Of a DNA stretch of 64,000 nucleotides, positions 3,733 through 40,640 are shown piece after piece. Origin of the DNA: Minisyncoccota bacterium (lineage in GTDB: Bacteria; Patescibacteriota; Minisyncoccia; UBA6257; XYB1-36-10); NCBI GenBank assembly GCA_041651415.1, contig JBAZJH010000001.1, positions 87,713 through 151,712 on the forward strand. The letters are read 5' to 3'. The position numbers and the translations under genes were made by a program. Every line of letters begins with the position of its first letter. Positions within the stretch are counted from its first letter, which is position 1. The notes under the pieces are model-generated. The model ran no database searches and was not told the origin of the DNA. It saw only the letters and a list, made by a program, of their open reading frames with translations.

Positions 3733-3855
3733 TTATTAAATCTCCACGAAAACCACGCGCGTTAGCTAGGGAGTTGAAGTGGTAAAGATTTAATAAACCC
3801 CGCCTTTAGGGGGGTGAGAAACTCAGGATACCACGGCCGTAAGGCCGTGGAGTTT
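3733..3855 (+). repeat. Repeat family A, copy A1 (~125-nt three-hairpin intergenic element).
   Basis: ttattaaatctccacgaaaacc…ggtaaagatttaataaaccccgcctttaggggggtgagaaactcaggataccacggccgtaaggccgtggagttt is near-identical to the copy at 7103-7225. It abuts the typA stop. Confidence 0.75.
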
Positions 3856-5645
3856 CATTTTTGGCGGGAGTGTTTGATGCGGGCGTTTTCGGTGAGAAAC
3901 TGTTTTCTCAAGCGAATGCTTTTTGGAGTGATTTCCAAATATTCGTCTTCGTTCATAACTCCCATACCGCGTTCCAAAGAAAGCTCCATAGGCGGAGTCA
4001 AACGAATGGCTTCGTCGGAACCGGAGGCGCGCATATTGCTAAGTTCTTTTCCTTTAATCGGATTGACGGTCATATCGTTGCCTTTCGAGACATTGCCGAT
4101 AACCATTCCTTCGTAAACTTCCGTTCCGGCTTTAACATAAAGAACGCCTCTTTCTTGAAGATTATATAAAGAGAAGCCAAGAGCTTTGCCGGTTGCCATA
4201 GAAACCATAGAGCCGAGTTCGCTTTTTTCGATATTGCCGGCATAAGGTTTGAAACCGATGACGCGGGTGTAAAGAATGCCTTCGCCGCGCGTATCGATAA
4301 TAAATTCATTGCGATAGCCGAGAAGAGCGCGGGTGGGAATTTCAAAAATCATAAAGGCGCGATTATTTTCGTGCTTGATTTCGAGCATCTGCCCTTTTCT
4401 TTTGCCGAGGCGTTCAATAACAACTCCGGCCATTTCCTCCGGAACATTTATTGTGGCTTCTTCAAAAGGTTCGAGCTTTGCGCCGTTTTCTTCTTTGATA
4501 ATAACGTGCGGTTCGGAGATTTGGAGTTCGTAGCCTTCGCGGCGCATATTTTCAAGCAGAATGGCGATATGCATTTCGCCGCGTCCGTAAACTTTGTAAT
4601 GGTCGCCTTCGGAAAAATCCACTTTCAAACCGACATTGACTTCCAGTTCTTTTTCCAAGCGTTCTTTAATTTGGCGAGTAGTGACAAATTTTCCTTCTCG
4701 GCCGGCGAAAGGGGAATCATTAACGAGAAAATTAAGACAGATGGTCGGTTCATCGATGGAAATGGCGGGCAGAGCTTTTTGATTTTCATTTTCACAAATG
4801 GTTTCGCCGATAAAAATATCGGGAAGTCCGGCAATCATAACAATATCGCCGGCGACAGCTTCCTCTTCTTCTTTGCGAGCCAGACCTTCGAAAGTGAAGA
4901 GTTTGGTGACTTTTCCCTGGCGGATTTCGCCTTTGTCGTTTTTAATGAAAACTGTTTGGCCATTTTTTATTTTTCCTTCGTAAATGCGGCCAAGTCCGAG
5001 ACGGCCGAGAAAATTGTCGTAAGCGAGATTGAAGGGCTGCATTAAAAGAGGCAAGTTGTTTTTTTCGGCGCCGGAAGCGACAGGCACTTCTTTAAGAATA
5101 ACGTCGAGAAGCGGGGAGAGGTCGGCGGATTTGTCTTCCAGATTTACTTTAGCGATGCCGTCGCGGCCGATGGCGTAGATAGTGGAAAAATTAAGCTGGT
5201 CGTTATTTGCGCCCAGTTCCATAAAAAGTTCCAGAACCATTTCATGAACGGCTTCCGGACGGGCGGCGGCTTTGTCTATTTTATTAATAACGACGATTGG
5301 CTTTAGTCCGAGGTCGAGAGATTTTTTAAGAACAAATCGAGTTTGAGGCATTGGGCCTTCTTGAGCGTCAACGACAAGAATAACGGAATCGATGGAGCGG
5401 AGAACGCGTTCCACTTCGGAGCCGAAGTCGGCGTGGCCGGGGGTGTCGACGATATTGATTTTTGTTTCTTTATAATAAACGGAGGTGTTTTTAGAATAAA
5501 TCGTAATACCGCGCTCTTTTTCGAGCGTGTTGGAATCCATGCTGACGCCGGCTTCTGCCATACCGGTTTGACGCATCAGAGCATCGGTAAGCGTGGTTTT
5601 GCCGTGGTCAACGTGGGCGATAATGGCGATGTTTCTTATATCCAT
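3855..5645 (-). CDS. typA: Translational GTPase TypA/BipA.
   Basis: 596 aa with G1 AHVDHGKTTL, DTPGHADF and NKID motifs, plus full-length EF-G-like domain order and the BipA C-terminal domain. Confidence 0.95.
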   Translation of the reverse strand: MDIRNIAIIAHVDHGKTTLTDALMRQTGMAEAGVSMDSNTLEKERGITIYSKNTSVYYKETKINIVDTPGHADFGSEVERVLRSIDSVILVVDAQEGPMPQTRFVLKKSLDLGLKPIVVINKIDKAAARPEAVHEMVLELFMELGANNDQLNFSTIYAIGRDGIAKVNLEDKSADLSPLLDVILKEVPVASGAEKNNLPLLMQPFNLAYDNFLGRLGLGRIYEGKIKNGQTVFIKNDKGEIRQGKVTKLFTFEGLARKEEEEAVAGDIVMIAGLPDIFIGETICENENQKALPAISIDEPTICLNFLVNDSPFAGREGKFVTTRQIKERLEKELEVNVGLKVDFSEGDHYKVYGRGEMHIAILLENMRREGYELQISEPHVIIKEENGAKLEPFEEATINVPEEMAGVVIERLGKRKGQMLEIKHENNRAFMIFEIPTRALLGYRNEFIIDTRGEGILYTRVIGFKPYAGNIEKSELGSMVSMATGKALGFSLYNLQERGVLYVKAGTEVYEGMVIGNVSKGNDMTVNPIKGKELSNMRASGSDEAIRLTPPMELSLERGMGVMNEDEYLEITPKSIRLRKQFLTENARIKHSRQK

Positions 5646-5757
5646 ATTAGGGTAAATAAAATCCGCTTTTTGGCGGATAAAAATTATCAGCGCTTTTATA
5701 TATTATAGAAGAAAATAGAAAAAAAGCAAGTTTGAGGGATGTTGAGAAACATTCTTA

Positions 5758-5783
5758 TTCCAATGTTGTTGAGAATATTGGGA
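5758..5783. repeat. Family C-like palindrome variant (TTCCAATGTTGTTGAGAATATTGGGA) in the parB-like upstream region.
   Basis: It shares the TTCCAAT…GAGAATATTGG arms of family C. Confidence 0.3.
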
Positions 5784-5934
5784 TAAGGAAGGAAAGAAAG
5801 TTTTTGACAAAAAAAGAGAAAGAGCTTATTTTTTAGGGAGAATTTTGAAACTAAATTAAAGAAATCTGCCTATACTAAGGTTGTGGCAAGACAAAGCTAC
5901 GACGTGAAAAGTCGGGGCACAAAGGAGAAAGAAA

Positions 5935-7053
5935 ATGGAAAAGAAAAGCGTAGTTGATGTTACTGAAATGGTTTATTGCAGGTTAGAAGGAAAAAACATT
6001 TCTGGCGAAAATTGCATAAAAATTTCGGGAATAAAAAAAAACAGGAACGGAGCTTGCATAAGATGCGGTTCGGAATTCAAAAGAGTAAGAAAACCGGTTT
6101 CAACTCCGCCTTTGGATTTTTCAAAGGCAAGAACCGGAAGTTCTGGGGGAAATGGGAAAGTTCATCGAGGGGAAGAGAATCAGGTAATTTTGATTCCAGT
6201 CGGAAATTTAGTTCCTGATCCAGAACAGCCAAGAATGTATTTTGACCTGGTTGCTTTAGAATGCCTAAAAGAAAGCATAAGAGAAAATGGGCAGAAGCAA
6301 CCGATTGTTATTTTTCAGGACGGGGAGAAAAGCATTATTCTTGACGGAGAAAGGCGGTGGAGATGCATTAAAGAATTAGGGTGGAAAGAGATTTCTTGCT
6401 TTATTATTTCGAAACCGAAGGACAAAAGAGAAAAATTGCTGCTTTCTCTTCTTTATAACTTCTGCCGAGAATCACATACGGTTGAAGAAGAAGTCATAGC
6501 CGCAAAGAAATTGCTTGATTCCGGAATGGCGCAAGCCGGCATCGCAAGAGCAATCGGCAAATCACAGATGTGGGTTTCGCAAAGATTGGCTCTTCTCAAC
6601 TTGCGTTCAGAAGTTTTTGGAATGTTGTCTCCGAAATTGCCGGAGGAGAAAAGAATAAATATTTCGGCAGCTTATGAGCTTTCTAAAATTGAAGATAAAG
6701 AAATTCAATTATCTTTAGCTTTAGAAATGGTGAAAAAAAAGATGACTCTTTGCGAATCCAGAACTTTGATTGAAGCGACTTGCAAGGAAAGAGGGTTAGA
6801 TGTAAGGAGAAAAAGGAAGGTGAAGCCGAGCGATATATGGAAGAGAATTACTCCGAAGCTGAGAGCATTTTTATTCAACTTTCGAAGAAATTTGAATGAA
6901 GGGGAAAAGGAGCTAGAGATAATGCTTCGGAAAAGAGAATTGTCGGAGTTGAGGCAGTTAATGAAAGACCTTAGCGAATGCATGGCTCTTTCTTCGCAGT
7001 TTCATATTTTAGTGAAGGGGGTTTTTGAAAAAAAGGGGGGAGTTCATGAATAA
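5935..7053 (+). CDS. Orphan ParB/Srx-fold protein with an N-terminal zinc-ribbon extension and an HTH.
   Basis: A CxxC…CxxC ribbon (CRLEGKNISGENC…CIRCGS) is followed by a ParB N-domain (…QPIVIFQDGEKSIILDGERRWRCIKELGW…) and an HTH (AGIARAIGKSQMWVSQRLALLNL). The GERRxR arginine patch is the ParB CTP-binding motif. No parA is adjacent. Confidence 0.7.
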   Translation: MEKKSVVDVTEMVYCRLEGKNISGENCIKISGIKKNRNGACIRCGSEFKRVRKPVSTPPLDFSKARTGSSGGNGKVHRGEENQVILIPVGNLVPDPEQPRMYFDLVALECLKESIRENGQKQPIVIFQDGEKSIILDGERRWRCIKELGWKEISCFIISKPKDKREKLLLSLLYNFCRESHTVEEEVIAAKKLLDSGMAQAGIARAIGKSQMWVSQRLALLNLRSEVFGMLSPKLPEEKRINISAAYELSKIEDKEIQLSLALEMVKKKMTLCESRTLIEATCKERGLDVRRKRKVKPSDIWKRITPKLRAFLFNFRRNLNEGEKELEIMLRKRELSELRQLMKDLSECMALSSQFHILVKGVFEKKGGVHE

Positions 7054-7102: not shown

Positions 7103-7225
7103 TTATTAAATCTCCACGAAAACCCCGCGCGTTAGCTAGGAAGTTGAAGCGGTAAAGATTTAATAAACCCCGCCTTTAGGGGGGTGAGAAACTCAGGATA
7201 CCACGGCCGTAAGGCCGTGGAGTTT
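7103..7225 (+). repeat. Repeat family A, copy A2.
   Basis: Near-identical to A1. It abuts the uppP stop at 7228. Confidence 0.75.
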
Positions 7226-7227
7226 CA

Positions 7228-7995
7228 TTAGAGAGCGAAAAGAAGAAAGATAAAAACAAGGAGAAGGCGATAGACGCCAAAGGAAGCAAAAGAATGACGG
7301 CGGATATAATTCAGAAGGAATTTTATGCTTAAGGCGGCGGAGAAAAAAGAAACGATAAAACCGAGAGCGAGAAGATAAAATTCGGAAGAAGAAAAGGAAG
7401 CGGAAGTTTTTAAAAGGTCGAAAAAAGTGGCGGCGAACATGGTTGGGACGGCGAGAAGAAAAGAAAATTCAACGATAGTTTGACGGGGAATTTTTAAAGC
7501 GAGTCCGCCGATAATAGTGGCGGCGGAACGGGAAATGCCGGGAACAACGGCAAGCGCTTGGCAGGCGCCGATTATCAGGCATTCTTTAAAACTGATATCT
7601 TTGATATCTTTTTCTCCTTTACTTTCTTTAAAAAATTTTTCAAAGAGAATAAGGAAAAGTCCGCCTAAAGCGAGAGACAAAAGAACGATAGCGATATTGC
7701 CAAGAAGGAAGCTTTTAACGGTTTTATAAAGAAGAAAACCGATTAGGCCGGTAGGGAGAAAAGCGACGAAGATTTTTTTCAGAACTTCCAAGTCGAGAAA
7801 TTTTTTAAAGAAAAGGACGATAACGGAAAGAATGGCGCCGCTTTGAATGGCGATTTCAAAAGTTTTGAGGAATTCCGTTTCGGAAATTTTTAAAAGATTA
7901 GAAGCAAGAATAAGATGGGCGGTTGAAGAGATGGGTAAAAATTCGGTGAAGCCCTCAATTAATCCGAGAAGGGAAGCGGTAAAAAAATTAAGCAT
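7228..7995 (-). CDS. uppP: Undecaprenyl-diphosphatase UppP (BacA).
   Basis: 255 aa polytopic protein. MLNFFTASLLGLIEGFTEFLPISSTAHL… and …PGISRSAATI… are UppP signature regions. Confidence 0.9.
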   Translation of the reverse strand: MLNFFTASLLGLIEGFTEFLPISSTAHLILASNLLKISETEFLKTFEIAIQSGAILSVIVLFFKKFLDLEVLKKIFVAFLPTGLIGFLLYKTVKSFLLGNIAIVLLSLALGGLFLILFEKFFKESKGEKDIKDISFKECLIIGACQALAVVPGISRSAATIIGGLALKIPRQTIVEFSFLLAVPTMFAATFFDLLKTSASFSSSEFYLLALGFIVSFFSAALSIKFLLNYIRRHSFASFGVYRLLLVFIFLLFAL

Positions 7996-8442: not shown

Positions 8443-8622
8443 ATGCTTTGGATGACTTTTTTGGTTGTTTTAGTTTTTACAATTCTTTCATGGTTTATTT
8501 TTAGTGATTCGGAGAGCTTAGGCTGGCGAGTTCTTTTGACGATGTCGGCTTCCGGTTTGGCGTTTTGGATTATGATGGCGGCGATTGCGGCCTGCGGGAC
8601 ACTCGGGTGTGTGGGAAAATGA
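8443..8622 (+). CDS. Unlisted 59-aa two-TM micro-protein (MLWMTFLVVLVFTILSWFIFSDSESLGWRVLLTMSASGLAFWIMMAAIAACGTLGCVGK).
   Basis: ATG 8443 to TGA 8620-8622. Hydrophobic with no SD. It is just under the ORF-track length cutoff. Confidence 0.3.
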   Translation: MLWMTFLVVLVFTILSWFIFSDSESLGWRVLLTMSASGLAFWIMMAAIAACGTLGCVGK

Positions 8623-8626
8623 AATT

Positions 8627-8746
8627 CTACAGCCTTACGGCCGTGGAATCTTTTAGTTTCACCCTGCAAAAAGTCGGGGTTTTATTAAATCTTCTCCGCT
8701 AAAACTCCTTAGCTGACGCACGGAGTTTTCGCGGAGATTTAATAAA
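8627..8746 (-). repeat. Repeat family A, copy A3 (reverse orientation).
   Basis: The reverse complement matches the A consensus: ttattaaatcttctccgctaaaactcc…ggagttttcgcggagatttaataaa…ccacggccgtaaggctgtag. Confidence 0.7.
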
Positions 8747-8776
8747 AAAATAGGCCTGTTCCGAAGAACAGGCCTT
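8742..8776 (-). terminator. Intrinsic terminator of the 1890-aa surface-protein gene.
   Basis: aggcctgttc-cgaa-gaacaggcct is a 10-bp stem followed on the minus strand by a T7 run. It lies 25 nt downstream of the stop. Confidence 0.7.
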
Positions 8777-8798: not shown

Positions 8799-11700
8799 TT
8801 ATTCGACAATTTCCGAGGGGATGATGGCAGTAACGTAACGGTTATACCTATCCTGAAGGAAAACAAAAATGCTGAATTTTACAGGAGTATTAGGCCATTC
8901 TACCATCTCTACTACCCAAACATTCCTCGTGATCTCCGTTATTCGAAAACGGATTTTCGAGGCGAGATCTAAAGAAGTGTCCGCGATAACCAAAGCTCTT
9001 GCCAGATTATCACCTGTTAAAAAACAAGTGAAAACCGGTTCGGTTTTTCCGATTGTCGCTTTAACTACACCGGTAAGAATCATCAGATTCTTTGCCGGAG
9101 GAGTTGGAGTCGGTGGAATCGGAGTTGCGGTTGGCACAAGCGTCGGTGTCGGAGTCGGTGGAACAGGCGTGGATGTCGGAGGAACAGGTGTTGGCGGAAC
9201 CGGTGTCGCCGTTGGTTCCGGCGTGTTTGTCGGAGTTGGCGGAACAGGCGTTGGCGGAACCGGTGTCGTTGTTGGTTCCACAAAAGCTTCGGTGGCATTC
9301 CATACAATCGTGGCTGTCACCGAATTCACTCCGTCACTCGCGACGATTTCGAAACTGCTCGTCGGGCCGATTTCCGTTGCCGAAAACACCAAGTCGGCAG
9401 ACAAATTCGAACCGACCTGCATAACGCTTGTCACCTCTACGACAAATGTCGGAGAGATGACAAAAGCGCTCACGATGTCGCCGTCGTCCGGGTCCGTAAT
9501 TGTTATATGCAATAATTGCGAATCCCCAACGGCTAACTCCGGCGTGGCATCGGTTGGCATCGCGAATACTTCCGGCGATACCGAAATAATCGGCGCTTGA
9601 TTCGCTTTCGGCGTCGGCGTTACAGTCGGCGTCGAAGTCGCGGTTGGAGGCAAAGTTGGGGTCGCGGTTTCCGTCGGCGTTGCAGTCGGCGGAAGCAGAA
9701 CGATGTTGATGCAGAAAGTTTCTTCCTTATCGAAAACCTTAAATCTAAAAATAAACGACCCTTGGTTTCTTTTGGAAGAAAAACTAATTATCAATTGCCG
9801 GTCACTTAATCGTTCCGTGTTGGTTTCCCCGAGCTGAGGAACGCCAACCATTTCTACTCTTCCTGCTTCTACTGAAGCTAAAAATTTTAAATTTCCAGTA
9901 GAAGACATGGCCCCGCTGCCGGAATAAGAAGCTCCAGTTTCCGGATTGGAAAAAGAAATTAAATCCGGAGGTACAGGAGTGTTTGTCATAGTCGGAGTAA
10001 CAGTCGCTGTCGGCAGAACTGGTGTAGTTGTTGGCACCAAGGTTGGTGTCGGAGGCACAGGAGTTTCTGTCGGCGTTGCTGTCGGCGGAACCGGAGTGTC
10101 GGTTGAAGTACAAGTTGGCGTCGGAATTTCCGGCGTTACAGTCGGCAATTCCGGAGTTGCTGTTGGAAATTCCGGAGTTTCAGTTGCTGTGGGCAACAAC
10201 TCTGTTGCTGTTGGCTGAACTGGAGTGTTCGTACTCGTGGGAGTAGGAAGCGCTTCAGTTGCTGTTGCTGTCGGCAATTCCGGGGTATTCGTTGCCGTCG
10301 GCGGGACTTCTGTCGCCGTCGGAGGCACTGAAGTATTGGTCGGTGTCGGCGGAACTTCTGTCGCCGTCGGGGGCACTGGAGTGTTGGTTGGAGTACTAGT
10401 TGGTGTTGGTGTCGGCGCTGGATTGATAGTAAATATAGCGTCAACAAAAGACAGATTGTAATTCGTATTCAAGGCCAAAGTGCCTTGGCAAATCGCATAG
10501 TCTCCGACAGGTTCACCTGGGTCGCGTATCAGCGCGCCCGAGAAGGCGTCGCTGAATGCTAACGAACCCGAAGTAATCTGATAAGTGAACACTGTAGGGT
10601 CCGAATCCCCAAAGGTTTTCGACTTGGGTTCAGCCGCTACCGTAATCTGTCTTGCCGTGACAAGTAAATTGTCACCAACAAATGCCAGATTATAGTTGTC
10701 GCTCAAAGCCAGACTTCCTTGGGTGATGGCGTAAGTGCTGACATTTTCGCCAGGTGCTCGCGTGAGCGAACCCGAGAAGGTGTCAGCTCCGACCAGCGAG
10801 CCTGCGGTGATTTGGTAAGTGAGAGGCGCTGGGTCGGCATCTCCGTAGACTTTCGTCTGCGGGTCGGTAGTGACTTCGATCGTTCTTTTGTTAACTACCA
10901 GGCTCGCCGTTCCACTGCTTGCGCCGTTTTCCGTGTCGCCCGCGAAATTCGCGGCGACTCCAACCGGATATGAACCTTGATTGGTATCAAGGACGATTCC
11001 GGTGAGAGTTGCGACACCGCTACCGTCAGTCAAAGCGTTGCCTTTAGCAACGCCATTAAGCGAAAAGTCAATTTGCTTTCCGCTCATGGCTGGCGAAAGC
11101 GTCGCCGACAAACCGACGATGTTTCCGTAGTTGTCGGTAATTGAAGCTACCGACAAAGACGTGGAAAACACCGAACATGGCTCGTTCAGAGAAAACGGCC
11201 AGTAATCAACATGATCACTGACGGCATTTCCAGTCCCTGTTGGGTTTGAAGAATGAAACGGACCGGTAGGAGAACCCCACCAGTTTCTTTTGGCGTTTGC
11301 GGTCAAATAAACGACATTTGATTCAAAGCCAAAATTATTACCGATTCGATTGAGATTAGCTATAATACTGGTAAATATACCAGTATCGCAACCGCTCTCG
11401 CACTGATATGTCCCGATGCCTGTTCCAAATCCGGTGATGGTGTTATTCATCATCAGTAGATTCAAATTATCGGGGCCATATCCGGCGTCGGCTTCCAAGC
11501 CGACTGTTCCGGTGTTGTCTGGACCGCTGAAGTTAATTACATTGTCCGTAATCACTACATCCAGCGTTCGTACCACCATCGGTTTATTCTGTCTGCCAAA
11601 TCTGGAAGCAGTTTTTCCTTTGGCGGCCGGTTTTTCCGGAACGTCAAACGGCGAGGGAACGATTCCTGGCGGGTCGGAGGCGACTATGCCGTATCCCGAT

Positions 11701-15111: not shown

Positions 15112-15162
15112 TTATTAAATCTTCGCGAAAACCCCGCGTGTTAGCTATAAGGGGTTTGACAA
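15112..15162 (+). repeat. Repeat family A, truncated copy A4 (left arm plus first hairpin only).
   Basis: ttattaaatcttcgcgaaaaccccgcgtgttagctataaggggtttgac matches the 5' half of the A elements. Confidence 0.55.
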
Positions 15163-17248: not shown

Positions 17249-17278
17249 CGCGTCCGATTAATCTCGGACGCTTTTTTT
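17249..17278 (+). terminator. Intrinsic terminator (gcgtccgattaatctcggacgc + T7).
   Basis: A 9-bp stem plus a T-run sits 40 nt after the 15718..17208 stop. Confidence 0.65.
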
Positions 17279-17375
17279 ATTAAATCTCCGTAGAAACATT
17301 GCGCGTTAGCGCAAGGTTTCTACGGCTAAGATTTAATAAAACCCCGTCGTAGGCGGGGTGAAACTCAAGATATTA
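17277..17375 (+). repeat. Repeat family A, copy A5 (lacks the terminal GNRA hairpin).
   Basis: ttattaaatctccgtagaaacattgcgcgttagcgcaaggtttctacggctaagatttaataaaaccccgtcgtaggcggggtgaaactcaagat. The arms CCGTAGAAAC/GTTTCTACGG differ from other copies in a way that keeps the stem paired. Confidence 0.7.
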
Positions 17376-17529
17376 TCGAGTTTCGTTAAGTCTCTGTAAA
17401 AACATTTAATTTTATTAAAAATTTATTTTATCGGAATTGACATTTTGCCAGGGATTATTTCAATGCTAAAATTATTGACACAGGGGGGAGGGGATTTATA
17501 CTTTAAATTGGAAAAAGGCAACATAGCCG

Positions 17530-26454: not shown

Positions 26455-26481
26455 AACAGCAGAGCAAAGAAATAAGATTTC

Positions 26482-26691: not shown

Positions 26692-28653
26692 GTGATGAAA
26701 AGTTTTAAGAAGCAAAGAGCGTTTTTTGCGGCGGCGATTTTTATATTGGCGGCGGCGAGCGGATTTTCAGATTCAGTGAAAGATTGGAGAAAAGATATAG
26801 AGGTTGGGGATATTCTTTATGACCCGATTGGCGCTGTTATTGACTTGAAGATAATTGAATCAGTCAAAACGGGACATATAGGAATTTATGTGGGAGACGT
26901 TGAATATGGAGGAATAATTTGGCCGAATCAAGTGATTGAAGCAACACTTGTTGGTGGCGGAGTTTATATGATTGGAATAGAGGTTTGGGATTATCCGACG
27001 ACGAAAGAAGCTTGGATTCTCAGACCTAAAGCTCCGTCTGAATTAAAGAGAAAGGCGGTAGAATTTACTGAAAGCCAAATCGGAAAAGGATATACAAAGC
27101 TTAACTTTTTTTCAAGAAATCCTAGTCCGAATAACGAGCGTTGGTATTGTAGTGAACTTATTTGGGCGGCTTATTTTCAAGAAGGGAAGGGAATTGATTT
27201 GGCTAGCGTAAATATCGAGGAGGTGGGCGGAATAATAAATTCTGCCGTGTCGCCGCTTGATATTTTTGTTGATGACGACGTTTATTCTGTAAGCTATCAC
27301 GGAGATTACGATGTGATTCCGGAAGATGCTTTCAGAGTGTATAACGCAAATTTAGGGACGAGATATTTTTCCTTAAAAGAGGCGATAGAGGAAAAGTACT
27401 TGCGAGAGGGTGACATTATTTTAATTGAACCCGGAGGTTATCTGGGGGGAGGAAAAGTAGAAGAAAAGGGAGTAGTTTTGCGAGCGGTGGATTTTGACAA
27501 AGAAAGAAGAGTGGCAAAAACGGTAATTAGATCAGTAAAGAGCGTATTACAAACACTAGCTGATCTTGTTTCTTTTGAAGACCGGCCGACGGTGATCACA
27601 ATTTTATCTTCGGATGTGGTTTTAGAGGGGCTAACTATCACCGGGGCTTGGGGGAGCGAGGAAGTCGGAGGAATAAAAATAACAGAAGGAGCGGATAATT
27701 GCCGAATCTCCAATTGTATTTTATTCAATAATCCGTATGGAGTCGGAGCGGTTGATTCCTCCCATCATGTAATCAGAGACAATTCTTTTCTTTTTAACGA
27801 TTATGGCATTGGGTTTGTCCGATCTTACGGCGGCGAAGTTTTTAAGAATAGGATTGAGGGAAGTTTTAAGAAAGGATTTGTCGCAGGTGAGAATGAAGAA
27901 GCGTGCGCTTCAACGGCAGCGGTTGAAGAAATTCCGGGAAGCGATGTTCTTTTGTCTCCTTATAGAGATTTAAGGGATAAAATTCTTAAACCGCAGACAG
28001 TTTCCGATTACTATCGGTTTTCTTTGCCGGTTTTAGAAGTTTTTCGGAAAGATAAAAACTTAAAGAAGGAAGCTAGAGAGCTGATTTCTTTTTGGTCGCC
28101 GAAGATAAAACTTTTTTTTTCTGAAAATAAAGATTTTGAAATTAGAAGAGAAGAGGCGGAAAGAACGGCGGAGTTTTTGGAAAAACTTTCCGGTGGCTTG
28201 GAGAATTCTGAAACAAAAATTTTTGTGGAGAATCTTCTGAAAGAGGCGGAAATATCCGGCGGGAAAAAATTCAGCGAAGCGGTAAAAAATTCCTCGTTTT
28301 TTGAAGAAAAAAAATCTTCCACGAAGGCAAAGACGGAAAATTCCAAAAAGCCGACCTTTGTTTATTTAAATGATTTTTTAAATAACAAAGAATGGTCGGT
28401 TGGAAATTATCCGGAAGGATTGTTCTATTGGTTCTCGCCCGCCGAAATAAATTATTGTTTTAATAATAAAAATTTTTTCGGATTTCTTGGAAACTATTGG
28501 GGAGAGCCGGCAATGTCTTTTTTGGATAAAGACGGGAATGGAATTGGAGACAGCGCTTATGGCAATGATCTTTATCCTTTAATGGAGGGAGAGGATTGTT
28601 ATGGAAAAAAGAAGGCGGAAAAAACGGAAGTTTCGGATTGGATTTTATATTGA
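26692..28653 (+). CDS. Secreted multidomain protein: an N-terminal permuted papain-fold (NlpC/P60-like, His-before-Cys) domain, central right-handed beta-helix repeats and a C-terminal Asp/Gly-rich module.
   Basis: Signal peptide. HIGIYVGD (His) precedes WYCSELIWAAY (Cys) in the order typical of permuted NlpC/P60 (YiiX/YaeF-like) enzymes. Beta-helix rungs are …ITGAWGSEEVGGIKITEGADNCRISNCILFNNPYGVGAVDSSHHVIRDNSF…. The C-terminus is DKDGNGIGDSAYGNDLYPL. Confidence 0.6.
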   Translation: MMKSFKKQRAFFAAAIFILAAASGFSDSVKDWRKDIEVGDILYDPIGAVIDLKIIESVKTGHIGIYVGDVEYGGIIWPNQVIEATLVGGGVYMIGIEVWDYPTTKEAWILRPKAPSELKRKAVEFTESQIGKGYTKLNFFSRNPSPNNERWYCSELIWAAYFQEGKGIDLASVNIEEVGGIINSAVSPLDIFVDDDVYSVSYHGDYDVIPEDAFRVYNANLGTRYFSLKEAIEEKYLREGDIILIEPGGYLGGGKVEEKGVVLRAVDFDKERRVAKTVIRSVKSVLQTLADLVSFEDRPTVITILSSDVVLEGLTITGAWGSEEVGGIKITEGADNCRISNCILFNNPYGVGAVDSSHHVIRDNSFLFNDYGIGFVRSYGGEVFKNRIEGSFKKGFVAGENEEACASTAAVEEIPGSDVLLSPYRDLRDKILKPQTVSDYYRFSLPVLEVFRKDKNLKKEARELISFWSPKIKLFFSENKDFEIRREEAERTAEFLEKLSGGLENSETKIFVENLLKEAEISGGKKFSEAVKNSSFFEEKKSSTKAKTENSKKPTFVYLNDFLNNKEWSVGNYPEGLFYWFSPAEINYCFNNKNFFGFLGNYWGEPAMSFLDKDGNGIGDSAYGNDLYPLMEGEDCYGKKKAEKTEVSDWILY

Positions 28654-28743
28654 TTTTTGTGTTTTCTAAAGCTTCGGTTTAGTCCGGAGCTTTTTATTTT
28701 TTAGCAAGAACTGGGAGTGAAAGTTTTTTTGGAGCAATTCTTT

Positions 28744-28781
28744 GCATCCACGTTTGGTACATATGTACCAAATATGGATGC
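28744..28781. repeat. Family B palindrome, type 2, second copy (GCATCCACGTTTGGTACATATGTACCAAATATGGATGC).
   Basis: An imperfect palindrome with the same core, lying downstream of the 653-aa gene. Confidence 0.7.
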
Positions 28782-28802
28782 GGGAAAATAGAAAAAATTT
28801 TG

Positions 28803-28838
28803 TAGCATCAATGGGTACATATGTACCTATTGATGCTA
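28803..28838. repeat. Family B palindrome, type 1, second copy (TAGCATCAATGGGTACATATGTACCTATTGATGCTA).
   Basis: It mirrors the 26419 copy, so the arrangement around the gene is type1-type2-[gene]-type2-type1. Confidence 0.8.
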
Positions 28839-28970
28839 AATGAAAAAAGTTTTAAATGCGGAGATTTAATAAAAAATAATTTAATAGTAGTGTCAGTTAT
28901 AAATTTTAATGAAAAGATAAAAAAGTTTTCAACACGAGAAAGAAAAATTTTTCTGATATAATTTAAAAAA

Positions 28971-36206: not shown

Positions 36207-36330
36207 TTATTAAATCTCCGCTTCAAACCCTGCATGCTATCTTAAGGGGTTTGAAGCGGTAAAGATTTAAAAAACCCCGCCATAGGCGGGGTGAAACTTT
36301 AAGATTCCACGGCCGTGAGGCCGTGAAGTT
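36207..36330 (+). repeat. Repeat family A, copy A6.
   Basis: …atctCCGCTTCAAACCC-tgcatgctatcttaa-GGGTTTGAAGCGGtaaagatttaa…ccccgccataggcgggg…ccacggccgtgaggccgtga. It has a perfect 13-bp first stem and a GTGA tetraloop on the third. Confidence 0.75.
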
Positions 36331-36336
36331 TTTTTT

Positions 36337-36370
36337 CAAAACCGCTTGGTTTTTTCCAGGCGGTTTTTTG
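36337..36370 (+). terminator. Intrinsic terminator (aaaaccgcttgg…ccaggcggttttttg).
   Basis: Stem plus T-run directly after the A6 element. Confidence 0.5.
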
Positions 36371-38095: not shown

Positions 38096-40489
38096 ATGAA
38101 GGAACTTACAAAAAAATTTAAGGAAGTGGGAATAAATGATGTTCCAGAAGTGGGCGGAAAAAACGCTTCGCTGGGAGAAATGATTAAACATTTGAAACCG
38201 AAAGGAGTAAAGCTGCCGGACGGATTTATTGTGACAGCTACCGCCTTTCGTTATTTTTTAAAAGAAACGGGACTCGACAAAAGGATTCGGGAAGTTTTGC
38301 GTTATTTAAATACAAGAAATCTGAAGAAATTGGAAGAAAAGACGGCAGAAGTGAGGAAGCTCATTATTCAGGCAAAATTGCCGGACGATTTAAGAGAAGA
38401 AATTGTTTTAGGATACAGAATAATGGAAAAAGAATACGGGAAGAATGTGGATGTGGCAATCAGGTCAAGCGCAACGGCGGAAGATTTGCCGGATGCGAGT
38501 TTTGCCGGAGCGCACGAAACATATTTAAATGTGAGGGGAATAGAAGACGTTTTAAAACACACGCAAATGGCAATGGCGTCTTTGTTTACTCCTCGCGCCA
38601 CTTCTTATCGGGTAGATAAGGGGTTCGATCATTTTAAAATAGCTTTGTCGGTTGGAATTCAAAAAATGGTGCGCGCGGATAAGGCAAGTTCAGGCGTTAT
38701 TTTTACTTTAGACACGGAATCAGGATTTAATAATATAATTCTCATAAACGGAGTTTGCGGATTGGGAGAACTTATTGTGCAAGGGGAAGTGACGCCGGAT
38801 GAATGGCTGGTTTTTAAGCCGCTAATGGGGGAAAGAAAAATAATTCCGATAATAGACAGAAAATTGGGAGAAAAAAATCGGAAAATGATTTATCAGGAAA
38901 ACGGAAACGGGACAAAAATAATCAAGACAAGCGACAAAGAAAAAGAAACATTTGTCTTAAGCGATAAAGAGGTTTTAAAACTGGCGGAATGGTCTTCTTT
39001 AATCGAGGAACATTATTCAATCATAAAAGACAGGTGGCAGCCGATGGATATTGAATGGGCAAAAGACGGGAAAACCGGAGAGCTTTTTATAGTCCAAGCG
39101 AGGCCGGAAACAGTTCATTCATTGAGAGATATGACAAAATTGCGTTCTTATGAAAGACTGCAAAATGGGAAGGAAATTGTGAGGGGAGCATCGGTGGGAA
39201 ATAAAATTGCGGCTGGCAAGGCGAGAATAATAATAGACGTAAAAGATATTCGAAATTTTAAAGCGGGAGAAATTTTAGTGACGGATATGACCGACCCGGA
39301 TTGGGAGCCGATAATGAAAATTGCGGCGGGAATTATAACGGATAAGGGAGGAAGAACAAGCCACGCGGCAATTGTTTCAAGAGAGCTTGGAATTCCTTGC
39401 ATAGTCGGAAGCGGAACGGCGACCAAAAAAATAAAAACAGGAGAAATGGTGACGATAGACACGACGGGAAGCGAAGGAATTGTTTTTGAAGGAGAATTGA
39501 GATTTAAAATAAACGAAATAGACGTGAAAAAAGCGCCGAAAGTCAACGTAAAAATAATGATGAACATCGCGACGCCGGAATCGGCTTTTGAAAAATCATT
39601 TTTACCGAACAGCGGAGTGGGGCTCGCGAGAGAAGAATTTATAATTGCCGGAGGCGTGGGAGTGCATCCGATGGCGCTTATAAAATATAACCAATTGAGC
39701 GAGAAGCTGAAAAAAGAAATAGACAAAAAAACTTCCGGTTGGAAATCAAAAACGGATTTTTATGTTGATAAATTAGCTTTCGGCATTGCCAAAATTGCGG
39801 CGGCTTTTTATCCGAAACCGGTGATAGTAAGATTTTCCGATTTTAAAACAAACGAATATGCGACGCTTCTTGGCGGAGAAGACTTTGAACCGAAAGAAGA
39901 CAATCCAATGATTGGATGGCGGGGAGCTTCAAGATATTATCATCCGAATTTTCGAGCGGCTTTTGATTTGGAATGCCAAGCGATAAAAAAAGTAAGAGAC
40001 GAGATGGGTTTAACAAATACGGCAACGATGATTCCCTTTTGCCGAACAGTGGAGGAAGGAAAAAAAGTAATAAAAATAATGGGGGAAAACGGACTGCAGA
40101 GAAGCGGACGAGACAGAAACGGATTGAAAATTTATGTAATGTGCGAAATTCCGTCCAATGTGATTTTAGCCGAACAATTTCTTGATGTTTTTGACGGGAT
40201 GTCGATTGGCTCAAACGATTTAACACAACTTGCGATAGGAATAGACCGCGATGGCGGAGAACTTCTTCGGGGGATAGCCGATGAGAGAGACGAGGCGGTA
40301 AAAGAACTGATAAGACAGGTGATAAAAATCTGTAAGAAGAGAAATAAATATATCGGGATCTGCGGGCAGGCGCCAAGCGATTATCCGGAATTTGCCGAAT
40401 TTTTAATGAAAGAAGGAATTGAAAGCATGTCTTTAAATCCGGATTCGGTGATGCCGACCTTAATGCATCTTTCAAAGATAAAAAGATGA
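38096..40489 (+). CDS. ppsA: Phosphoenolpyruvate synthase (pyruvate, water dikinase).
   Basis: 797 aa. N-terminal …VGGKNASLGEM…, the phosphohistidine domain GGRTSHAAIVSRELGIPCIVG, and a C-terminal PEP-utilising TIM barrel. Confidence 0.9.
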   Translation: MKELTKKFKEVGINDVPEVGGKNASLGEMIKHLKPKGVKLPDGFIVTATAFRYFLKETGLDKRIREVLRYLNTRNLKKLEEKTAEVRKLIIQAKLPDDLREEIVLGYRIMEKEYGKNVDVAIRSSATAEDLPDASFAGAHETYLNVRGIEDVLKHTQMAMASLFTPRATSYRVDKGFDHFKIALSVGIQKMVRADKASSGVIFTLDTESGFNNIILINGVCGLGELIVQGEVTPDEWLVFKPLMGERKIIPIIDRKLGEKNRKMIYQENGNGTKIIKTSDKEKETFVLSDKEVLKLAEWSSLIEEHYSIIKDRWQPMDIEWAKDGKTGELFIVQARPETVHSLRDMTKLRSYERLQNGKEIVRGASVGNKIAAGKARIIIDVKDIRNFKAGEILVTDMTDPDWEPIMKIAAGIITDKGGRTSHAAIVSRELGIPCIVGSGTATKKIKTGEMVTIDTTGSEGIVFEGELRFKINEIDVKKAPKVNVKIMMNIATPESAFEKSFLPNSGVGLAREEFIIAGGVGVHPMALIKYNQLSEKLKKEIDKKTSGWKSKTDFYVDKLAFGIAKIAAAFYPKPVIVRFSDFKTNEYATLLGGEDFEPKEDNPMIGWRGASRYYHPNFRAAFDLECQAIKKVRDEMGLTNTATMIPFCRTVEEGKKVIKIMGENGLQRSGRDRNGLKIYVMCEIPSNVILAEQFLDVFDGMSIGSNDLTQLAIGIDRDGGELLRGIADERDEAVKELIRQVIKICKKRNKYIGICGQAPSDYPEFAEFLMKEGIESMSLNPDSVMPTLMHLSKIKR

Positions 40490-40610
40490 AACTTCACGGC
40501 CTTACTGCTACAGAGTCTTAAAGTTTCACCCCGACCAAAGTCGGGGTTTATTAAATCTTAGCCGCGAAAACCTCGCGCTAACGCGCGGGGTTTTCGCGAA
40601 GATTTAATAA
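40490..40610 (-). repeat. Repeat family A, copy A7 (reverse orientation), abutting the ppsA stop.
   Basis: The reverse complement reads ttattaaatcttCGCGAAAACC-tcgcgctaacgcgc-GGGTTTTCGCGaagatttaataaa… with a compensated first stem and CCCCGAC/GTCGGGG second stem. Confidence 0.7.
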
Positions 40611-40612
40611 AA

Positions 40613-40640
40613 AAGAAAACCCCGATTAAATCGGGGTTTG
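40613..40640. terminator. Bidirectional terminator hairpin (aaaaccccgattaaatcggggttt).
   Basis: 8-bp stem flanked by A/T runs, between convergent genes. Confidence 0.55.

What the first reader, a model, noticed from the sequence alone, without database searches (positions are those of the whole stretch)
3733..40640. Multi-copy ~125-nt three-hairpin intergenic element (family A) with compensatory base changes between copies
There are six full copies (3733, 7103, 8627 rev, 17277, 36207, 40490 rev) and three partial copies (246, 15112, about 28858). They share the inverted termini TTATTAAATCT…AGATTTAATAAA, a first stem-loop, a second CCCCGNC/GNCGGGG stem and, in most copies, a third CCACGGCC-G(T/A)(A/G)A-GGCCGTGG hairpin with a GNRA tetraloop. 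The first stem differs in primary sequence between copies while staying paired: CCGCTTCAAACCC/GGGTTTGAAGCGG, CCGTAGAAAC/GTTTCTACGG, CGCGAAAACC/GGTTTTCGCG and CTCCGCTAAAACTCC/GGAGTTTTCGCGGAG. The second stem does the same with GCC/GGC versus GAC/GTC. That covariation argues for selection on structure (an RNA, or a REP/MITE-like DNA element) rather than drift. Most copies abut stop codons and sit beside intrinsic terminators. I do not recognise the family.
Basis: seen in the sequence. Interest (0 to 1): 0.7.

Follow-up and report, generated by a model that had tools for sequence, protein, structure and literature searches.

The report
Small hairpin-rich mobile repeat, Paceibacterota
A roughly 122-base, three-hairpin DNA repeat has recently spread through the intergenic regions of one uncultured Paceibacterota (Patescibacteria) genome, landing next to terminators and exactly at stop codons while supplying a replacement stop codon. 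It is a new family of a familiar kind of selfish element, not a new RNA gene.

Summary
The repeat is real. There are six full copies, three remnants in the window, and one more full copy on another metagenome contig (L044). All fold into the three hairpins described.

It matches nothing in Rfam, plasmids, phages or viral contigs. It is absent from every related Patescibacteria locus I could fetch. Five occupied sites (c1, c2, c5, c6 and the remnant at 198) are empty in relatives.

Comparison with the nearest relative places the boundaries at TTA|TTAAATCT...GAGTTTCA| (122-124 nt). Insertion falls 3' of TTA, usually the T5-7A tail of a terminator, with no target-site duplication.

Where that TTA is the reverse complement of a convergent gene's TAA stop, the element sits between the last sense codon and the stop. 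Its terminal TCA then reads as an in-frame TGA (BipA, PEP synthase, a 59-aa ORF). Protein lengths are unchanged.

Hairpin 3 read forward and hairpin 2 read in reverse both look like terminators.

Covariation support is weak. Three of seven copies carry an unpaired internal loop in hairpin 1, and damage to hairpin 3 is not compensated. Both strands fold about equally well.

Best reading: a lineage-specific, non-autonomous mobile DNA repeat of the PATE/MITE/REP kind. It may be moved by an IS200/IS605-type single-strand transposase, but that step is inferred and no transposase was found.

The parts
3736..3857 (+). Copy c1, element proper (TTAAATCT...GAGTTTCA). Target TTA at 3733-3735. Terminal TCA 3855-3857 is the TGA stop of BipA/TypA (minus strand).
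   Evidence: The site is empty in L039, the 95% BipA relative.
3733..3796 (+). c1 hairpin 1: a long stem, TTATTAAATCT paired with AGATTTAATAA, with a 3-nt bulge on the 3' side. The outer three pairs use the target TTA.
3797..3815 (+). c1 hairpin 2 (CCCCGCC-TTTA-GGGGGG). Read on the opposite strand it is a GC stem followed by TTTATTAAATCTT, which is terminator-like.
   Evidence: Equivalent sites in c3, c4 and c5 are flagged.
3818..3856 (+). c1 outer stem GAAACTC/GAGTTTC enclosing hairpin 3 (CCACGGCC-GTAA-GGCCGTGG, 3831-3850). Terminator-like in the forward direction (tail AGTTTCATTT).
7106..7227 (+). Copy c2, 98% identical to c1. The left end follows the T7A tail of the ParB terminator. The right end abuts the TAA stop of BacA/UppP (7228-7230, minus strand), giving TAA-TGA in frame.
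   Evidence: The site is empty in L161.
8620..8742 (-). Copy c3. Target TTA at 8743-8745, following the terminator at 8752-8775 of the 1890-aa surface protein gene. Terminal TCA is the TGA stop (8620-8622, plus strand) of a 59-aa membrane-like ORF (8443-8622).
17280..17385 (+). Copy c4. It follows the terminator at 17250-17271 plus T7A. The 19-nt core of hairpin 3 is deleted. The right end is mutated to TCG.
36210..36333 (+). Copy c5, 17 nt after the MacB-type permease stop and co-oriented with both neighbouring genes. The right end has degenerated to TTTTT. A native terminator follows at 36338-36367.
   Evidence: The site is empty in L156 and L158.
40487..40607 (-). Copy c6. Target TTA at 40608-40610, following the bidirectional terminator at 40617-40639. 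Terminal TCA is the TGA stop of PEP synthase (40487-40489, plus strand). The left arm of hairpin 3 is scrambled.
   Evidence: The site is empty in L156, L158, L159 and L160.
198..276 (+). Remnant: right arm of hairpin 1 (AGATTTGATAA), decayed hairpin 2, and hairpin 3 with an inverted loop (TTAC). It fills the whole 73-nt spacer between the MliC-like stop (195-197) and the mltG/YceG stop. The terminal TTA is the TAA stop of YceG (271-273, minus strand).
   Evidence: (nhmmer E = 3.6e-11). Absent downstream of YceG in L039.
15115..15160 (+). Remnant: the left ~45 nt (left arm and loop of hairpin 1), preceded by TTTGTTTA.
   Evidence: E = 4e-8.
28858..28872 (-). Remnant: left terminus only (TTATTAAATCTCCGC), preceded on its own strand by ATTTTTTA.

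Best explanation
This is a lineage-specific, non-autonomous mobile DNA repeat of the MITE/PATE/REP kind, not an RNA gene.

**The unit.** It is 122-124 nt, running from 5'-TTAAATCT to GAGTTTCA-3', and has three parts:
- Hairpin 1 is a long 5' hairpin. Its 3' arm (AGATTTAA-TAA[A][A]) also pairs with the flanking target TTA or TTTA.
- Hairpin 2 is a short GC hairpin.
- Hairpin 3 is a GC hairpin 7 nt from the right end, enclosed by the stem GAAACT/AGTTTC.

**Insertion (shown).** The element inserts immediately 3' of TTA, usually the T5-7A tail that follows an intrinsic terminator. It does not duplicate the target.

**Stop codons (shown).** In this compact genome that tail is often the reverse complement of a convergent gene's TAA stop followed by an A-tract. 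Many insertions therefore fall exactly between the last sense codon and the stop. The element's terminal TCA then reads as an in-frame TGA, so the host protein is unchanged.

**Consequences (inferred).**
- Downstream of that TGA, the transcript meets hairpin 3 and then hairpin 2 followed by a U-rich tract.
- In the other direction hairpin 3 is followed by a U-rich tract. The element therefore looks like a two-way terminator or insulator.
- This makes insertions near-neutral.

**Mobilisation (inferred).** It is probably moved in trans by an IS200/IS605-type (Y1 HUH) single-strand transposase or a similar enzyme, with the hairpins acting as single-strand DNA recognition structures. No transposase was found.
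For: **The repeat is real and structured.**
-.

**Recent spread.**
- c1 and c2 are 98% identical with unrelated flanks; the other pairs are 65-84% identical.
- A Logan assembly of the same species ends inside c4 and inside c2.

**Empty sites in relatives.**
- c1: L039 has a 69-nt BipA-patatin spacer reading CGCCAAAAG TAG TCAATTTAAAAA. The window reads CGCCAAAAA[TGAAAC..AGATTTAA]TAA TCTGTTTAAAAA.
- c2: L161 reads CTC TAA TTAAAAAT-CCCTCC. The window reads CTC TAA[..]TAAAAAAA-CCCGCC. The stop-to-hairpin spacing is 8 nt in both only if TTA is target-derived and nothing is duplicated.
- c5 and c6: empty in L156, L158, L159 and L160.
- The remnant at 198: absent in L039.

**No copy elsewhere.**
- Neither nhmmer nor covariance model R1 finds a copy in about 120 kb of relatives.
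- There is no Rfam family, and no plasmid, phage or viral-contig match.

**Target.**
- The left flank is TTA in 9 of 9 ends and TTTA in 8 of 9. It is a T-run plus A directly after a terminator hairpin in c2, c3, c4, c6 and L044.

**Stop codon.**
- 3 of the 9 TGA stops among 53 ORFs are the element's own end (BipA, PEP synthase, the 59-aa ORF). Background usage is TAA 37, TGA 9, TAG 7.
- The orthologues in relatives end in TAG or TAA, and protein lengths are conserved: BipA 596 = 596, YceG 333 = 333.
- Without the TGA, translation would run 20-30 codons into the element.

**Terminator-like hairpins.**
- Hairpin 3 forward and hairpin 2 reverse are both flagged.

**Match to defining features from the literature.**
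- IS200/IS605 elements have no TIR and no target duplication, insert 3' of a specific tetra- or pentanucleotide, and carry a hairpin at each end (PMC7290912).
- PATEs are too short to encode a transposase, have near-terminal palindromes, cause no target duplication and have a 4-5 bp targeting sequence at the 5' end (PMC3119063).
Against: - No transposase of any kind lies in the 64-kb window, in the 16 kb of extra flank (L038, L162, L164) or in L044. The rest of the MAG could not be searched.
- Hairpin 2 and hairpin 3 are not similar to each other, whereas IS608-type ends usually carry similar hairpins.
- The left end starts a hairpin directly rather than having a subterminal one.
- The two termini show an imperfect inverted similarity (TTAAATCTCCGCG against TGAAA-CTCCACG, 10 of 13), so a TIR-type element is not fully excluded.
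- Orientation relative to the G-rich strand is mixed, 6 to 3.
- Only two empty sites come from a close relative. The more distant L158 empty site for c5 fits an insertion within a T-run about as well.
- The split of the flanking trinucleotides (TTA as target and TCA as element, or the reverse) rests on parsimony. The relatives carry TAG or TAA, not TGA.
- Only eight full copies are known and the genome-wide copy number is unknown.
- Copies cluster in the first 41 kb of the window, with none in the next 33 kb. This is unexplained.
Confidence: 0.68

Rival explanations
1. A family of structured small RNAs or cis-regulatory RNA elements. On this reading the three hairpins are selected at the RNA level, as the GNRA loop and compensatory changes might suggest, and the copies are genes or 3'-UTR modules rather than insertions.
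For: - The folds are stable, with z-scores from -4.8 to -9.7.
- The hairpin-3 loop is GTAA or GTGA in 6 of 7 forward-strand hairpins.
- Some changes are compensated: c4 against c6 against c5 in hairpin 1, and C-G against A-T in hairpin 2.
- The forward strand is slightly more stable in 6 of 7 copies.
- Most copies are certainly transcribed as 3' UTRs of the abutting genes.
Against: - There is no Rfam match.
- The element is absent from all relatives, including orthologous sites.
- c1, c2, c3, c6 and the remnant at 198 lie antisense to the element's forward strand within the 3' UTRs of convergent genes, while c4 and c5 lie in sense. No single strand is consistently transcribed.
- There is no conserved promoter, because the upstream sequence is unrelated flank.
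- Covariation is weak.
- Three of seven copies have an internal loop in hairpin 1.
- Hairpin 3 is destroyed or deleted in c6 and c4 without compensation.
- The difference in fold energy between strands is only 0.8-4.6 kcal/mol.
Confidence: 0.07
2. A classical MITE derived from a DDE-transposase insertion sequence. It would have terminal inverted repeats and a short AT-rich target duplication, for example TTA or a few T residues, as in Correia, ERIC, RUP or bcr1 elements.
For: - The size and AT-rich target fit.
- The termini are imperfectly inverted (10 of 13 with one gap; sequence read directly).
- c2 and c4 do have TTA on both sides.
- The c5 site compared with L158 is compatible with a TTT(T) duplication.
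Against: - The two empty sites from the closest relative (c1 and c2) leave no room for a duplicated trinucleotide.
- The right flanks are TTT, TTA, TTT, TTA, TTT, TCT and TTT, so they are not a repeat of the invariant left TTA.
- The strong 11-nt inverted repeat closes hairpin 1 only, not the element.
Confidence: 0.1
3. A REP/BIME-type repeat maintained by a RAYT (a domesticated Y1 transposase), with host functions in mRNA stabilisation and termination.
For: - The element is extragenic, sits at 3' ends of genes, has GC-rich imperfect palindromes and shows no target duplication.
- c2 and c3 lie in inverted orientation around a 1.4-kb segment.
- Background on REPs and RAYTs is in PMC2817692 and PMC3479197.
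Against: - The consensus has no conserved GTAG-type head. GTAG appears only as a mutation in c3 and c6.
- The unit is a 122-nt three-hairpin composite, not a 20-40-nt palindrome.
- There is no regular alternating BIME arrangement.
- The ORFs between c2 and c3 (BacA, a 108-aa acidic protein and a 59-aa membrane ORF) have no HUH/Y1 features.
Confidence: 0.07
4. A host-selected two-way terminator or insulator cassette, or a centromere-like site, spread by recombination rather than transposition. The clustering near parB (and gyrB in L044) and the GTGAAAC...GTTTCA motif (half-sites of parS, TGTTTCAC/GTGAAACA) could hint at an origin-proximal function.
For: - Terminator-like hairpins face both ways.
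- Seven of the window's sites lie within 41 kb that include parB, and none lie in the next 33 kb.
- The L044 copy lies 1 kb from gyrB.
- The window has no canonical parS.
Against: - The precise, TTA-anchored, stop-codon-exact junctions at unrelated loci are what transposition produces, not recombination.
- The parS-like halves are everted and about 35 nt apart, so they are not a ParB dimer site.
- The native terminators are still present next to c2, c3, c4, c5 and c6, so the cassette was not needed for termination.
Confidence: 0.05

Closest known systems
PATEs (palindrome-associated transposable elements), the transposase-less derivatives of IS200/IS605 elements described in Haloquadratum walsbyi (PMC3119063); parent family features in PMC7290912
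   Same: - Too short to encode a protein.
- No target duplication.
- Always abuts a short AT-rich target sequence on the left side.
- Asymmetric ends with palindromes near the termini; the right-end hairpin lies closer to the end than the left-end one.
- Copies include a homogeneous pair (98%) and more diverged ones.
- Palindrome-mediated internal deletions occur (c4).
   Different: - No cognate tnpA or tnpB was identified.
- The two GC hairpins are not alike.
- A 60-nt hairpin occupies the space between the left end and hairpin 2, and it pairs with the target itself.
- The target is only TTA or TTTA.
- The host is a bacterium of the Patescibacteria.
- The terminal TCA doubles as a replacement stop codon.
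SMR-A small mobile repeats of Haloquadratum (PMC3119063)
   Same: About 110 bp, a prominent inverted repeat, no target duplication, strong target preference, and an unknown mobilising enzyme.
   Different: SMR-A inverted repeats are terminal and the elements target palindromes of other mobile elements. Here the inverted repeat closes only the 5' half, and the target is the T-run plus A of terminators or stop codons. There is no sequence similarity.
REP/BIME elements with RAYT transposases (PMC2817692, PMC3479197)
   Same: Extragenic GC-rich palindromes at 3' ends of genes. HUH/Y1 chemistry leaves no duplication. Effects on mRNA 3' ends are likely.
   Different: There is no GTAG head, the unit is a composite of three different hairpins, and neither a BIME arrangement nor a RAYT was found.
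Classical bacterial MITEs: Correia/NEMIS (Neisseria), ERIC/IRU (enterobacteria), RUP and BOX (pneumococcus), bcr1 (Bacillus cereus group). This comparison rests on my own knowledge plus the review PMC3184786.
   Same: 100-160 nt, intergenic, fold into long hairpins when transcribed, can carry terminator or promoter activity, and are lineage-restricted.
   Different: Those elements have terminal inverted repeats spanning the element and duplicate a TA or longer target. This element shows no duplication at the two best-resolved sites, and its ends are only weakly inverted.
Group IIC introns (terminator-targeting retroelements; my own knowledge)
   Same: They insert just after the T-run of intrinsic terminators, in one orientation relative to the hairpin.
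   Different: There are no intron RNA domains (no Rfam group II hit), no reverse transcriptase and the element is only 122 nt. The resemblance is limited to target choice.

Membership tests
IS200/IS605-derived non-autonomous element (PATE) | No target-site duplication on insertion | tested here: met
   Filled against empty sites for c1 (L039) and c2 (L161). One trinucleotide in the relative corresponds to TTA + element. The stop-to-hairpin spacing is 8 nt in both genomes only without duplication.
IS200/IS605-derived non-autonomous element (PATE) | Left end always abuts a specific AT-rich tetra- or pentanucleotide target; single orientation relative to it | tested here: met
   TTA in 9 of 9 left junctions and TTTA in 8 of 9. 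T5-7A in c2, c3, c4, c5, c6, L044 and the remnant at 28872.
IS200/IS605-derived non-autonomous element (PATE) | No terminal inverted repeats; subterminal hairpins at both ends, usually alike, bound by a TnpA dimer | tested here: inconclusive
   Hairpin 3 lies 7 nt from the right end. The left end opens directly into a 60-nt hairpin, followed by GC hairpin 2. Hairpins 2 and 3 share no sequence. The termini show 10 of 13 inverted similarity.
IS200/IS605-derived non-autonomous element (PATE) | A cognate Y1 HUH transposase (Pfam Y1_Tnp) in the genome, carried by an element with the same ends | not testable with these tools
   None among the roughly 37 ORFs scanned (30 by Pfam; 7 of those and 3 others by NCBIfam), the flanks L038/L162/L164, or L044.
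IS200/IS605-derived non-autonomous element (PATE) | Orientation bias towards the lagging-strand template | tested here: inconclusive
   GC skew is positive across the whole window. Six ends lie on the + strand and three on the - strand.
Classical DDE-type MITE | Target-site duplication flanking the element | tested here: not met
   See the c1 and c2 empty sites. The right flanks are not copies of the left TTA.
Classical DDE-type MITE | Terminal inverted repeats at the two ends of the element | tested here: inconclusive
   The perfect 11-nt inverted repeat closes hairpin 1 only. The true ends align 10 of 13 with one gap (read).
REP/BIME | Short (about 20-40 nt) imperfect palindrome with a conserved GTAG-type 5' tetranucleotide, arranged in alternating orientation | tested here: not met
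   The consensus has no GTAG. The unit is 122 nt with three different hairpins. No regular arrays are present.
REP/BIME | Associated RAYT gene flanked by REPs | tested here: not met
   The ORFs between the inverted pair c2/c3 and next to the other copies have no Pfam or NCBIfam transposase hit and no HUH-like sequence. This holds only for the DNA available.
Any Rfam RNA family | Score at or above the family's gathering threshold | tested here: not met
   The whole-window scan finds only LOOT RNA, elsewhere in the window. Permissive scans of c5 and c6 give only sub-threshold generic hairpin or terminator matches.
Intrinsic (Rho-independent) terminator | GC-rich hairpin followed by a T-rich tail | tested here: met
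   Hairpin 3 in the forward direction (c1, c2, c5) and hairpin 2 in the reverse direction (c3, c4, c5) are flagged by the consensus scan. Actual termination was not tested.
Group IIC intron | Intron RNA domains (5' GUGYG, domain V) and usually a reverse transcriptase | tested here: not met
   No Rfam group II hit. The 5' end is TTAAATCT and the element is 122 nt long.

The most novel reading that the evidence does not exclude
The element may be a previously undescribed type of single-strand DNA transposon remnant that carries its own target guide and its own repair. On this reading:
- The 3' arm of hairpin 1 (TAA[A][A], directly 5' of hairpin 2) base-pairs with the target (T)(T)TTA and so selects the tails of terminators and TAA stop codons.
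- The terminal TCA has been shaped so that an insertion into a stop codon restores an in-frame stop with no change to the protein.
- It is mobilised in this reduced Patescibacteria genome by an enzyme that is not a recognisable IS200/IS605 TnpA.

If true, this would be a stop-codon-homing, self-healing mobile element.
Probability: 0.15. Interest if true: 0.7.

Novelty: new member of a known kind. Interest (0 to 1): 0.45.

Why it matters
Small mobile repeats have hardly been described in Patescibacteria. I found no paper on MITE-like elements in this group, although only searched for that directly and asked only about insertion sequences. These genomes are reduced and gene-dense, so any insertion is risky.

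This family shows one way a selfish element can persist there. It lands in terminator tails and stop codons, brings its own stop codon and carries terminator-like hairpins facing both ways. Host proteins and operon boundaries are preserved.

There are three practical consequences:
- The element breaks metagenome assemblies. A Logan contig ends inside two copies.
- It creates TGA stops that differ from the TAA or TAG of orthologues.
- It could be mistaken for a conserved sRNA.

If the mobilising enzyme is a Y1 transposase, the built-in complementarity between the element and its target would be a compact natural example of transposon-directed target choice.

Tried and rejected
- **Rfam.** At gathering and permissive thresholds there is nothing beyond generic hairpin noise.
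- **Genome-contig scan.** The TIR..TIR pattern gave 37 hits in unrelated AT-rich genomes. The two Patescibacteria hits (L013, L034) were read and are chance matches inside coding sequence.
- **Other collections.** The viral contig scan and blastn against plasmids and phages gave no match.
- **Covariance model R1.** It found no further or diverged copies in relatives or in the extra 10 kb to the right of the window.
- **An autonomous parent between the solo left end at 15112 and c4.** The two enclosed ORFs (166 aa; 496 aa with a signal peptide) have no Pfam or NCBIfam hit and do not look like transposases. Rejected.
- **A RAYT between the inverted pair c2 and c3.** Rejected.
- **parS or DnaA-box reading of GTGAAAC...GTTTCA and GATTCCACG.** The window has no canonical parS, and the half-sites are everted and separated. 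Set aside as coincidence.
- **SECIS-like reading of UGA followed by a CACGGCC hairpin.** There is no Rfam support, and the downstream frame is element sequence. Rejected.
- **A mini-ORF on the reverse strand** (MKLHGLTAV.S, starting at the ATG of ATGAAAC). It is conserved only as far as the nucleotides are, it is absent in c5 and the remnant at 198, and c3's changes are all non-synonymous. Probably chance.
- **Strand asymmetry of folding as a test for RNA.** Forward against reverse differs by only 0.8-4.6 kcal/mol, which is uninformative.
- **Literature.** I found no report of stop-codon-supplying MITEs or of Patescibacteria MITEs.

Full report

Yes. Repeat finding recovers the family (families D4, D7, D9, D14, D15, D17, D20 and inverted pairs I1-I19).
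- The 11-mer TTATTAAATCT occurs 14 times exactly. Counting hits with up to one mismatch there are 20, against 6.4 +/- 2.7 in shuffles, and no shuffle reaches 20.
- The hairpin-3 pattern occurs at 5 sites, against 0.03 expected.
- The six full copies and three remnants sit at the stated coordinates.
- Each full copy folds on its own into three hairpins, with z-scores from -4.8 to -9.7.
- A profile HMM and a covariance model built from the copies find nothing else in the window.

**2. Whose genome is this?**

The window's BipA, PEP synthase and BacA proteins are identical to proteins of an NCBI MAG named Candidatus Paceibacterota bacterium, on a contig of 298,271 bp. The same DNA is on ENA contig k141_1832807 of ERZ27247363. 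GC content is 39.5% and the + strand is G-rich throughout.

**3. Anatomy.** Read in the forward orientation:
- Hairpin 1 is a stem of roughly 20-28 pairs. TTATTAAATCT pairs with AGATTTAATAA, there is a constant 3-nt bulge on the 3' side, and the inner stem and loop are variable.
- Hairpin 2 is CCCCGNC-loop-GNCGGGG.
- The outer stem GAAACT/AGTTTC encloses hairpin 3, CCACGGCC-GTAA-GGCCGTGG.
- The element ends in TCA.

A consensus scan flags hairpin 3 as terminator-like in the forward direction (tail AGTTTCATTT). It flags hairpin 2 as terminator-like on the opposite strand (tail TTTATTAAAT).

**4. Context.** The two ends of the element have different neighbours.
- The left end directly follows the T-run of an intrinsic terminator of a co-oriented gene in c2, c3, c4 and c6, and in the extra copy L044.
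- The right end coincides with the stop codon of a convergent gene. The terminal TCA is the TGA stop of BipA (c1), of PEP synthase (c6) and of a 59-aa membrane-like ORF (c3).
- In c2 the BacA stop TAA is followed in frame by the element's TGA.
- In the remnant at 198 the equivalent triplet is the TAA stop of mltG/YceG.
- c4 and c5 lie between co-directional genes.

**5. Related genomes.** I fetched orthologous loci through protein homologues.
- The nearest relative comes from Logan run SRR33086896 (BipA 95%, BacA 84% identity). It has a 69-nt BipA-patatin spacer with no element (L039) and a 44-nt spacer after BacA with no element (L161). Nothing resembling the remnant lies downstream of YceG.
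- Relatives with 83%, 76% and 73% identical PEP synthase keep the gene order HlyD, ABC, MacB, glycerate kinase, 104-aa ORF, PEP synthase, enolase (a short minus-strand ORF precedes enolase in L156-L158). They have 19-105-nt spacers where the window has c5 and c6; in L159/L160 the MacB-glycerate kinase gap is longer (about 970 nt) but also holds no copy (L156-L160).
- Neither nhmmer nor the covariance model finds any copy in these loci, or in the 10 kb to the right of the window.

Outside this species the only true copy came from the metagenome pattern scan. It lies on a JGI contig (L044, from sample Ga0265297, which also yielded a contig identical to one in ERZ27247363), between pheT and gyrB, and again directly follows a terminator plus T7A. 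An independent Logan assembly of the same species (L163) starts inside hairpin 1 of c4 and ends inside hairpin 3 of c2. That is what a dispersed repeat does to an assembler.

**6. Boundaries and insertion rule.**

In gene orientation, the c1 site reads:
- L039: CGCCAAAAG TAG TCAATTTAAAAA
- window: CGCCAAAAA [TGAAAC...AGATTTAA] TAA TCTGTTTAAAAA

The c2 site reads:
- L161: CTC TAA TTAAAAAT CCCTCC...
- window: CTC TAA [TGAAAC...AGATTTAA] TAAAAAAA CCCGCC...

In both cases the relative has one trinucleotide where the window has TTA + X + TCA. For c2 the stop-to-hairpin spacing matches (8 nt against 8 nt) only if nothing was duplicated. The insert is therefore 122-124 nt with no target-site duplication.

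Which flanking triplet is the target? I assign TTA to the target and TCA to the element, for three reasons:
- The left TTA is invariant (9 of 9 ends, and TTTA in 8 of 9). The right triplet is TCA, TCG, TTT or TTA depending on the copy.
- The orthologues of the three genes that now end in TGA end in TAG or TAA.
- TGA is the minority stop codon here: TAA 37, TGA 9, TAG 7, and three of the nine TGA stops are the element's own end.

The opposite assignment (insertion just after a pre-existing TGA) is less parsimonious but not excluded. The c5 site compared with the more distant L158 is compatible with either reading, or with an insertion inside a T-run.

**7. Why stop codons?** This part is inference.

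In this compact genome, convergent genes share two-way terminators whose A-tract begins at the stop codon (TAA AAAAA-hairpin). On the other strand that reads hairpin-TTTTTTTA, which is exactly the preferred target.

An insertion 3' of that TTA falls between the last sense codon and TAA. The frame is then fixed, so the element's first triplet in that direction, TGA, is always in frame. Protein lengths are unchanged against orthologues: BipA 596 = 596 and YceG 333 = 333. Without the TGA, translation would run 20-30 codons into the element.

**8. Structure conservation.**
- On a model-fitted alignment of the seven full copies, 91.6% of cells pair.
- Most pairs never vary. 5 of 40 pairs show a double change, against 2.7 +/- 1.1 in shuffles, and 26 of 500 shuffles do as well.
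- The covariation score is 0.154 against 0.125.
- RNAalifold gives a slightly unfavourable covariation term of +1.35.

Real compensated blocks exist in hairpin 1: c6 has CGA/TCG, c4 has TAG/CTA and c5 has TTC/GAA. Hairpin 2 has one compensated pair. But c1, c2, L044 and the remnant at 15112 combine a left arm of one type with a right arm of another, which leaves a 2x3 internal loop.

Hairpin 3 tells the same story. It is scrambled in c6, carries two uncompensated transitions in c3 and has lost its 19-nt core in c4. In the remnant at 198 its loop is inverted (TTAC). Both strands fold nearly equally well.

This pattern fits palindromes maintained and eroded at the DNA level. Arm-to-arm templated repair, loop inversion and slippage deletion would all produce it. 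It does not single out an RNA.

**9. Mechanism.**

Shown:
- The element is a discrete unit.
- It has recently multiplied (c1 and c2 are 98% identical).
- It is absent from relatives.
- It inserts at TTA or T-run-A sites without duplication.
- It carries a stop codon and terminator-like hairpins.

Inferred: how it moves. Three features are the defining traits of the IS200/IS605 family and its transposase-less PATE derivatives (PMC7290912, PMC3119063): no duplication, a fixed short AT-rich sequence abutting one end only, and palindromes near asymmetric ends.

One suggestive detail is that the bases immediately 5' of hairpin 2, TAA(A)(A), are complementary to the target (T)(T)TTA. Hairpin 1 brings the two together. 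From my own knowledge, this recalls transposon-directed target selection in IS608.

Four points count against membership:
- No Y1 transposase, nor any other, was found in the DNA I could reach.
- Hairpins 2 and 3 are dissimilar.
- The left end is not subterminal in the usual sense.
- Orientation relative to the G-rich strand is mixed, 6 to 3.

I therefore say it works like a PATE, with about 0.35 confidence in that specific chemistry. I do not file it as a proven member.

**10. Rivals.**
- An sRNA or cis-RNA family is unlikely. It has no conserved promoter, both orientations occur relative to host transcription, it has no phylogenetic depth and covariation is weak.
- A DDE-type MITE is disfavoured by the missing duplication.
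- REP/BIME fails on the GTAG head, unit size and arrangement.
- A host-built terminator or parS-like site does not explain the exact TTA-anchored junctions. Native terminators remain beside the copies, and the window has no canonical parS.

**11. What remains unexplained.**
- Copies cluster in the first 41 kb of the window, which includes parB, and none lie in the following 33 kb.
- The mobilising enzyme is unknown.
- The genome-wide copy number is unknown.
- It is unclear whether the 59-aa ORF abutting c3 is a real gene. The gene callers on L038 and L162 did not call it.

**12. Verdict.**

This is a new family of a known kind of small, non-autonomous, hairpin-bearing mobile repeat, found in a phylum where such elements are barely documented. 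The stop-codon-replacing insertion geometry is a neat feature. Interest is moderate.

Noticed in passing
window 62271-62387 (+): A full-length match to LOOT RNA (Rfam RF03000), 75.4 bits against a gathering score of 46.4. It lies just upstream of the ORF at 62403-63455. This is the only Rfam hit in the window and is unrelated to the repeat.
   Followed up: no
window 2079-2125, 5747-5793, 44079-44125, 50404-50450: A second repeat family: the AT-rich palindrome ATTCCAAyATTCTCAAGAAyATTGGAAT (D5, I20-I21). It sits mostly in divergent or promoter-side intergenic regions, so it looks like an operator for a transcription factor.
   Followed up: no
window 26414-26456, 28798-28840, 57868-57910; also 26483-26525 and 28738-28780: Two further long palindromes, TAGCATCAATnGGTACATATGTACCTATTGATGCTA and CATCTATGTTTGGTAyATATGTACCAAAyATAGATG (D13, I8, I10, I13). 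They flank the beta-helix/peptidase gene at 26692-28653. One lies right beside the left-end remnant at 28858-28872.
   Followed up: no
window 18715-19014 and 20020-20319: A 300-nt direct duplication (91% identity) inside the 2003-aa ORF at 17530-23541. The neighbouring 1890-aa ORF (8799-14471) is full of short Thr/Pro-rich coding repeats (D1, D3, D6, D8, D10).
   Followed up: no
L164 13366-21053 (2-10 kb to the right of the window): An integrated island: GmrSD-like, AbiJ-like, an AAA_25 protein, an HTH_17 excisionase-like protein and a large serine recombinase, followed by ychF. It contains no copies of the repeat.
   Followed up: partly
L163 (Logan SRR8542065), positions 1-26 and 10071-10099: An independent assembly of the same species begins inside hairpin 1 of c4 and ends inside hairpin 3 of c2. 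The repeat fragments short-read assemblies.
   Followed up: yes
reverse strand of c1, c2, c6 and L044 (for example window 3858-3823, minus strand): An 11-codon mini-ORF starts at the ATG that overlaps the host stop (ATGA). It reads MKLHGLTAV(V/A)S* in c1, c2 and L044 and MKLHGLTATES* in c6. In c6, two of the three codon changes that break hairpin 3 are synonymous. It is absent in c5 and the remnant at 198, and c3's changes are non-synonymous. Probably chance.
   Followed up: partly
window 5935-7053 (+): The ParB-like gene (372 aa) has no adjacent parA, and the window has no canonical parS (TGTTNCACGTGAAACA) within 2 mismatches.
   Followed up: partly
window 1-41000 against 41001-64000 plus L164: All nine copies and remnants lie in the first 41 kb. 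None lie in the next 33 kb or in the 6 kb to the left of the window. The cause of this clustering is unknown.
   Followed up: partly
L040 3663-6668 (a co-occurring Patescibacteria contig from the same sample, BipA 80% identical): Directly downstream of BipA this other organism carries a large serine recombinase and a rolling-circle Rep-like gene (REP_ORF2-G2P). A different mobile element has landed at the same kind of position. It holds no copy of the repeat.
   Followed up: no
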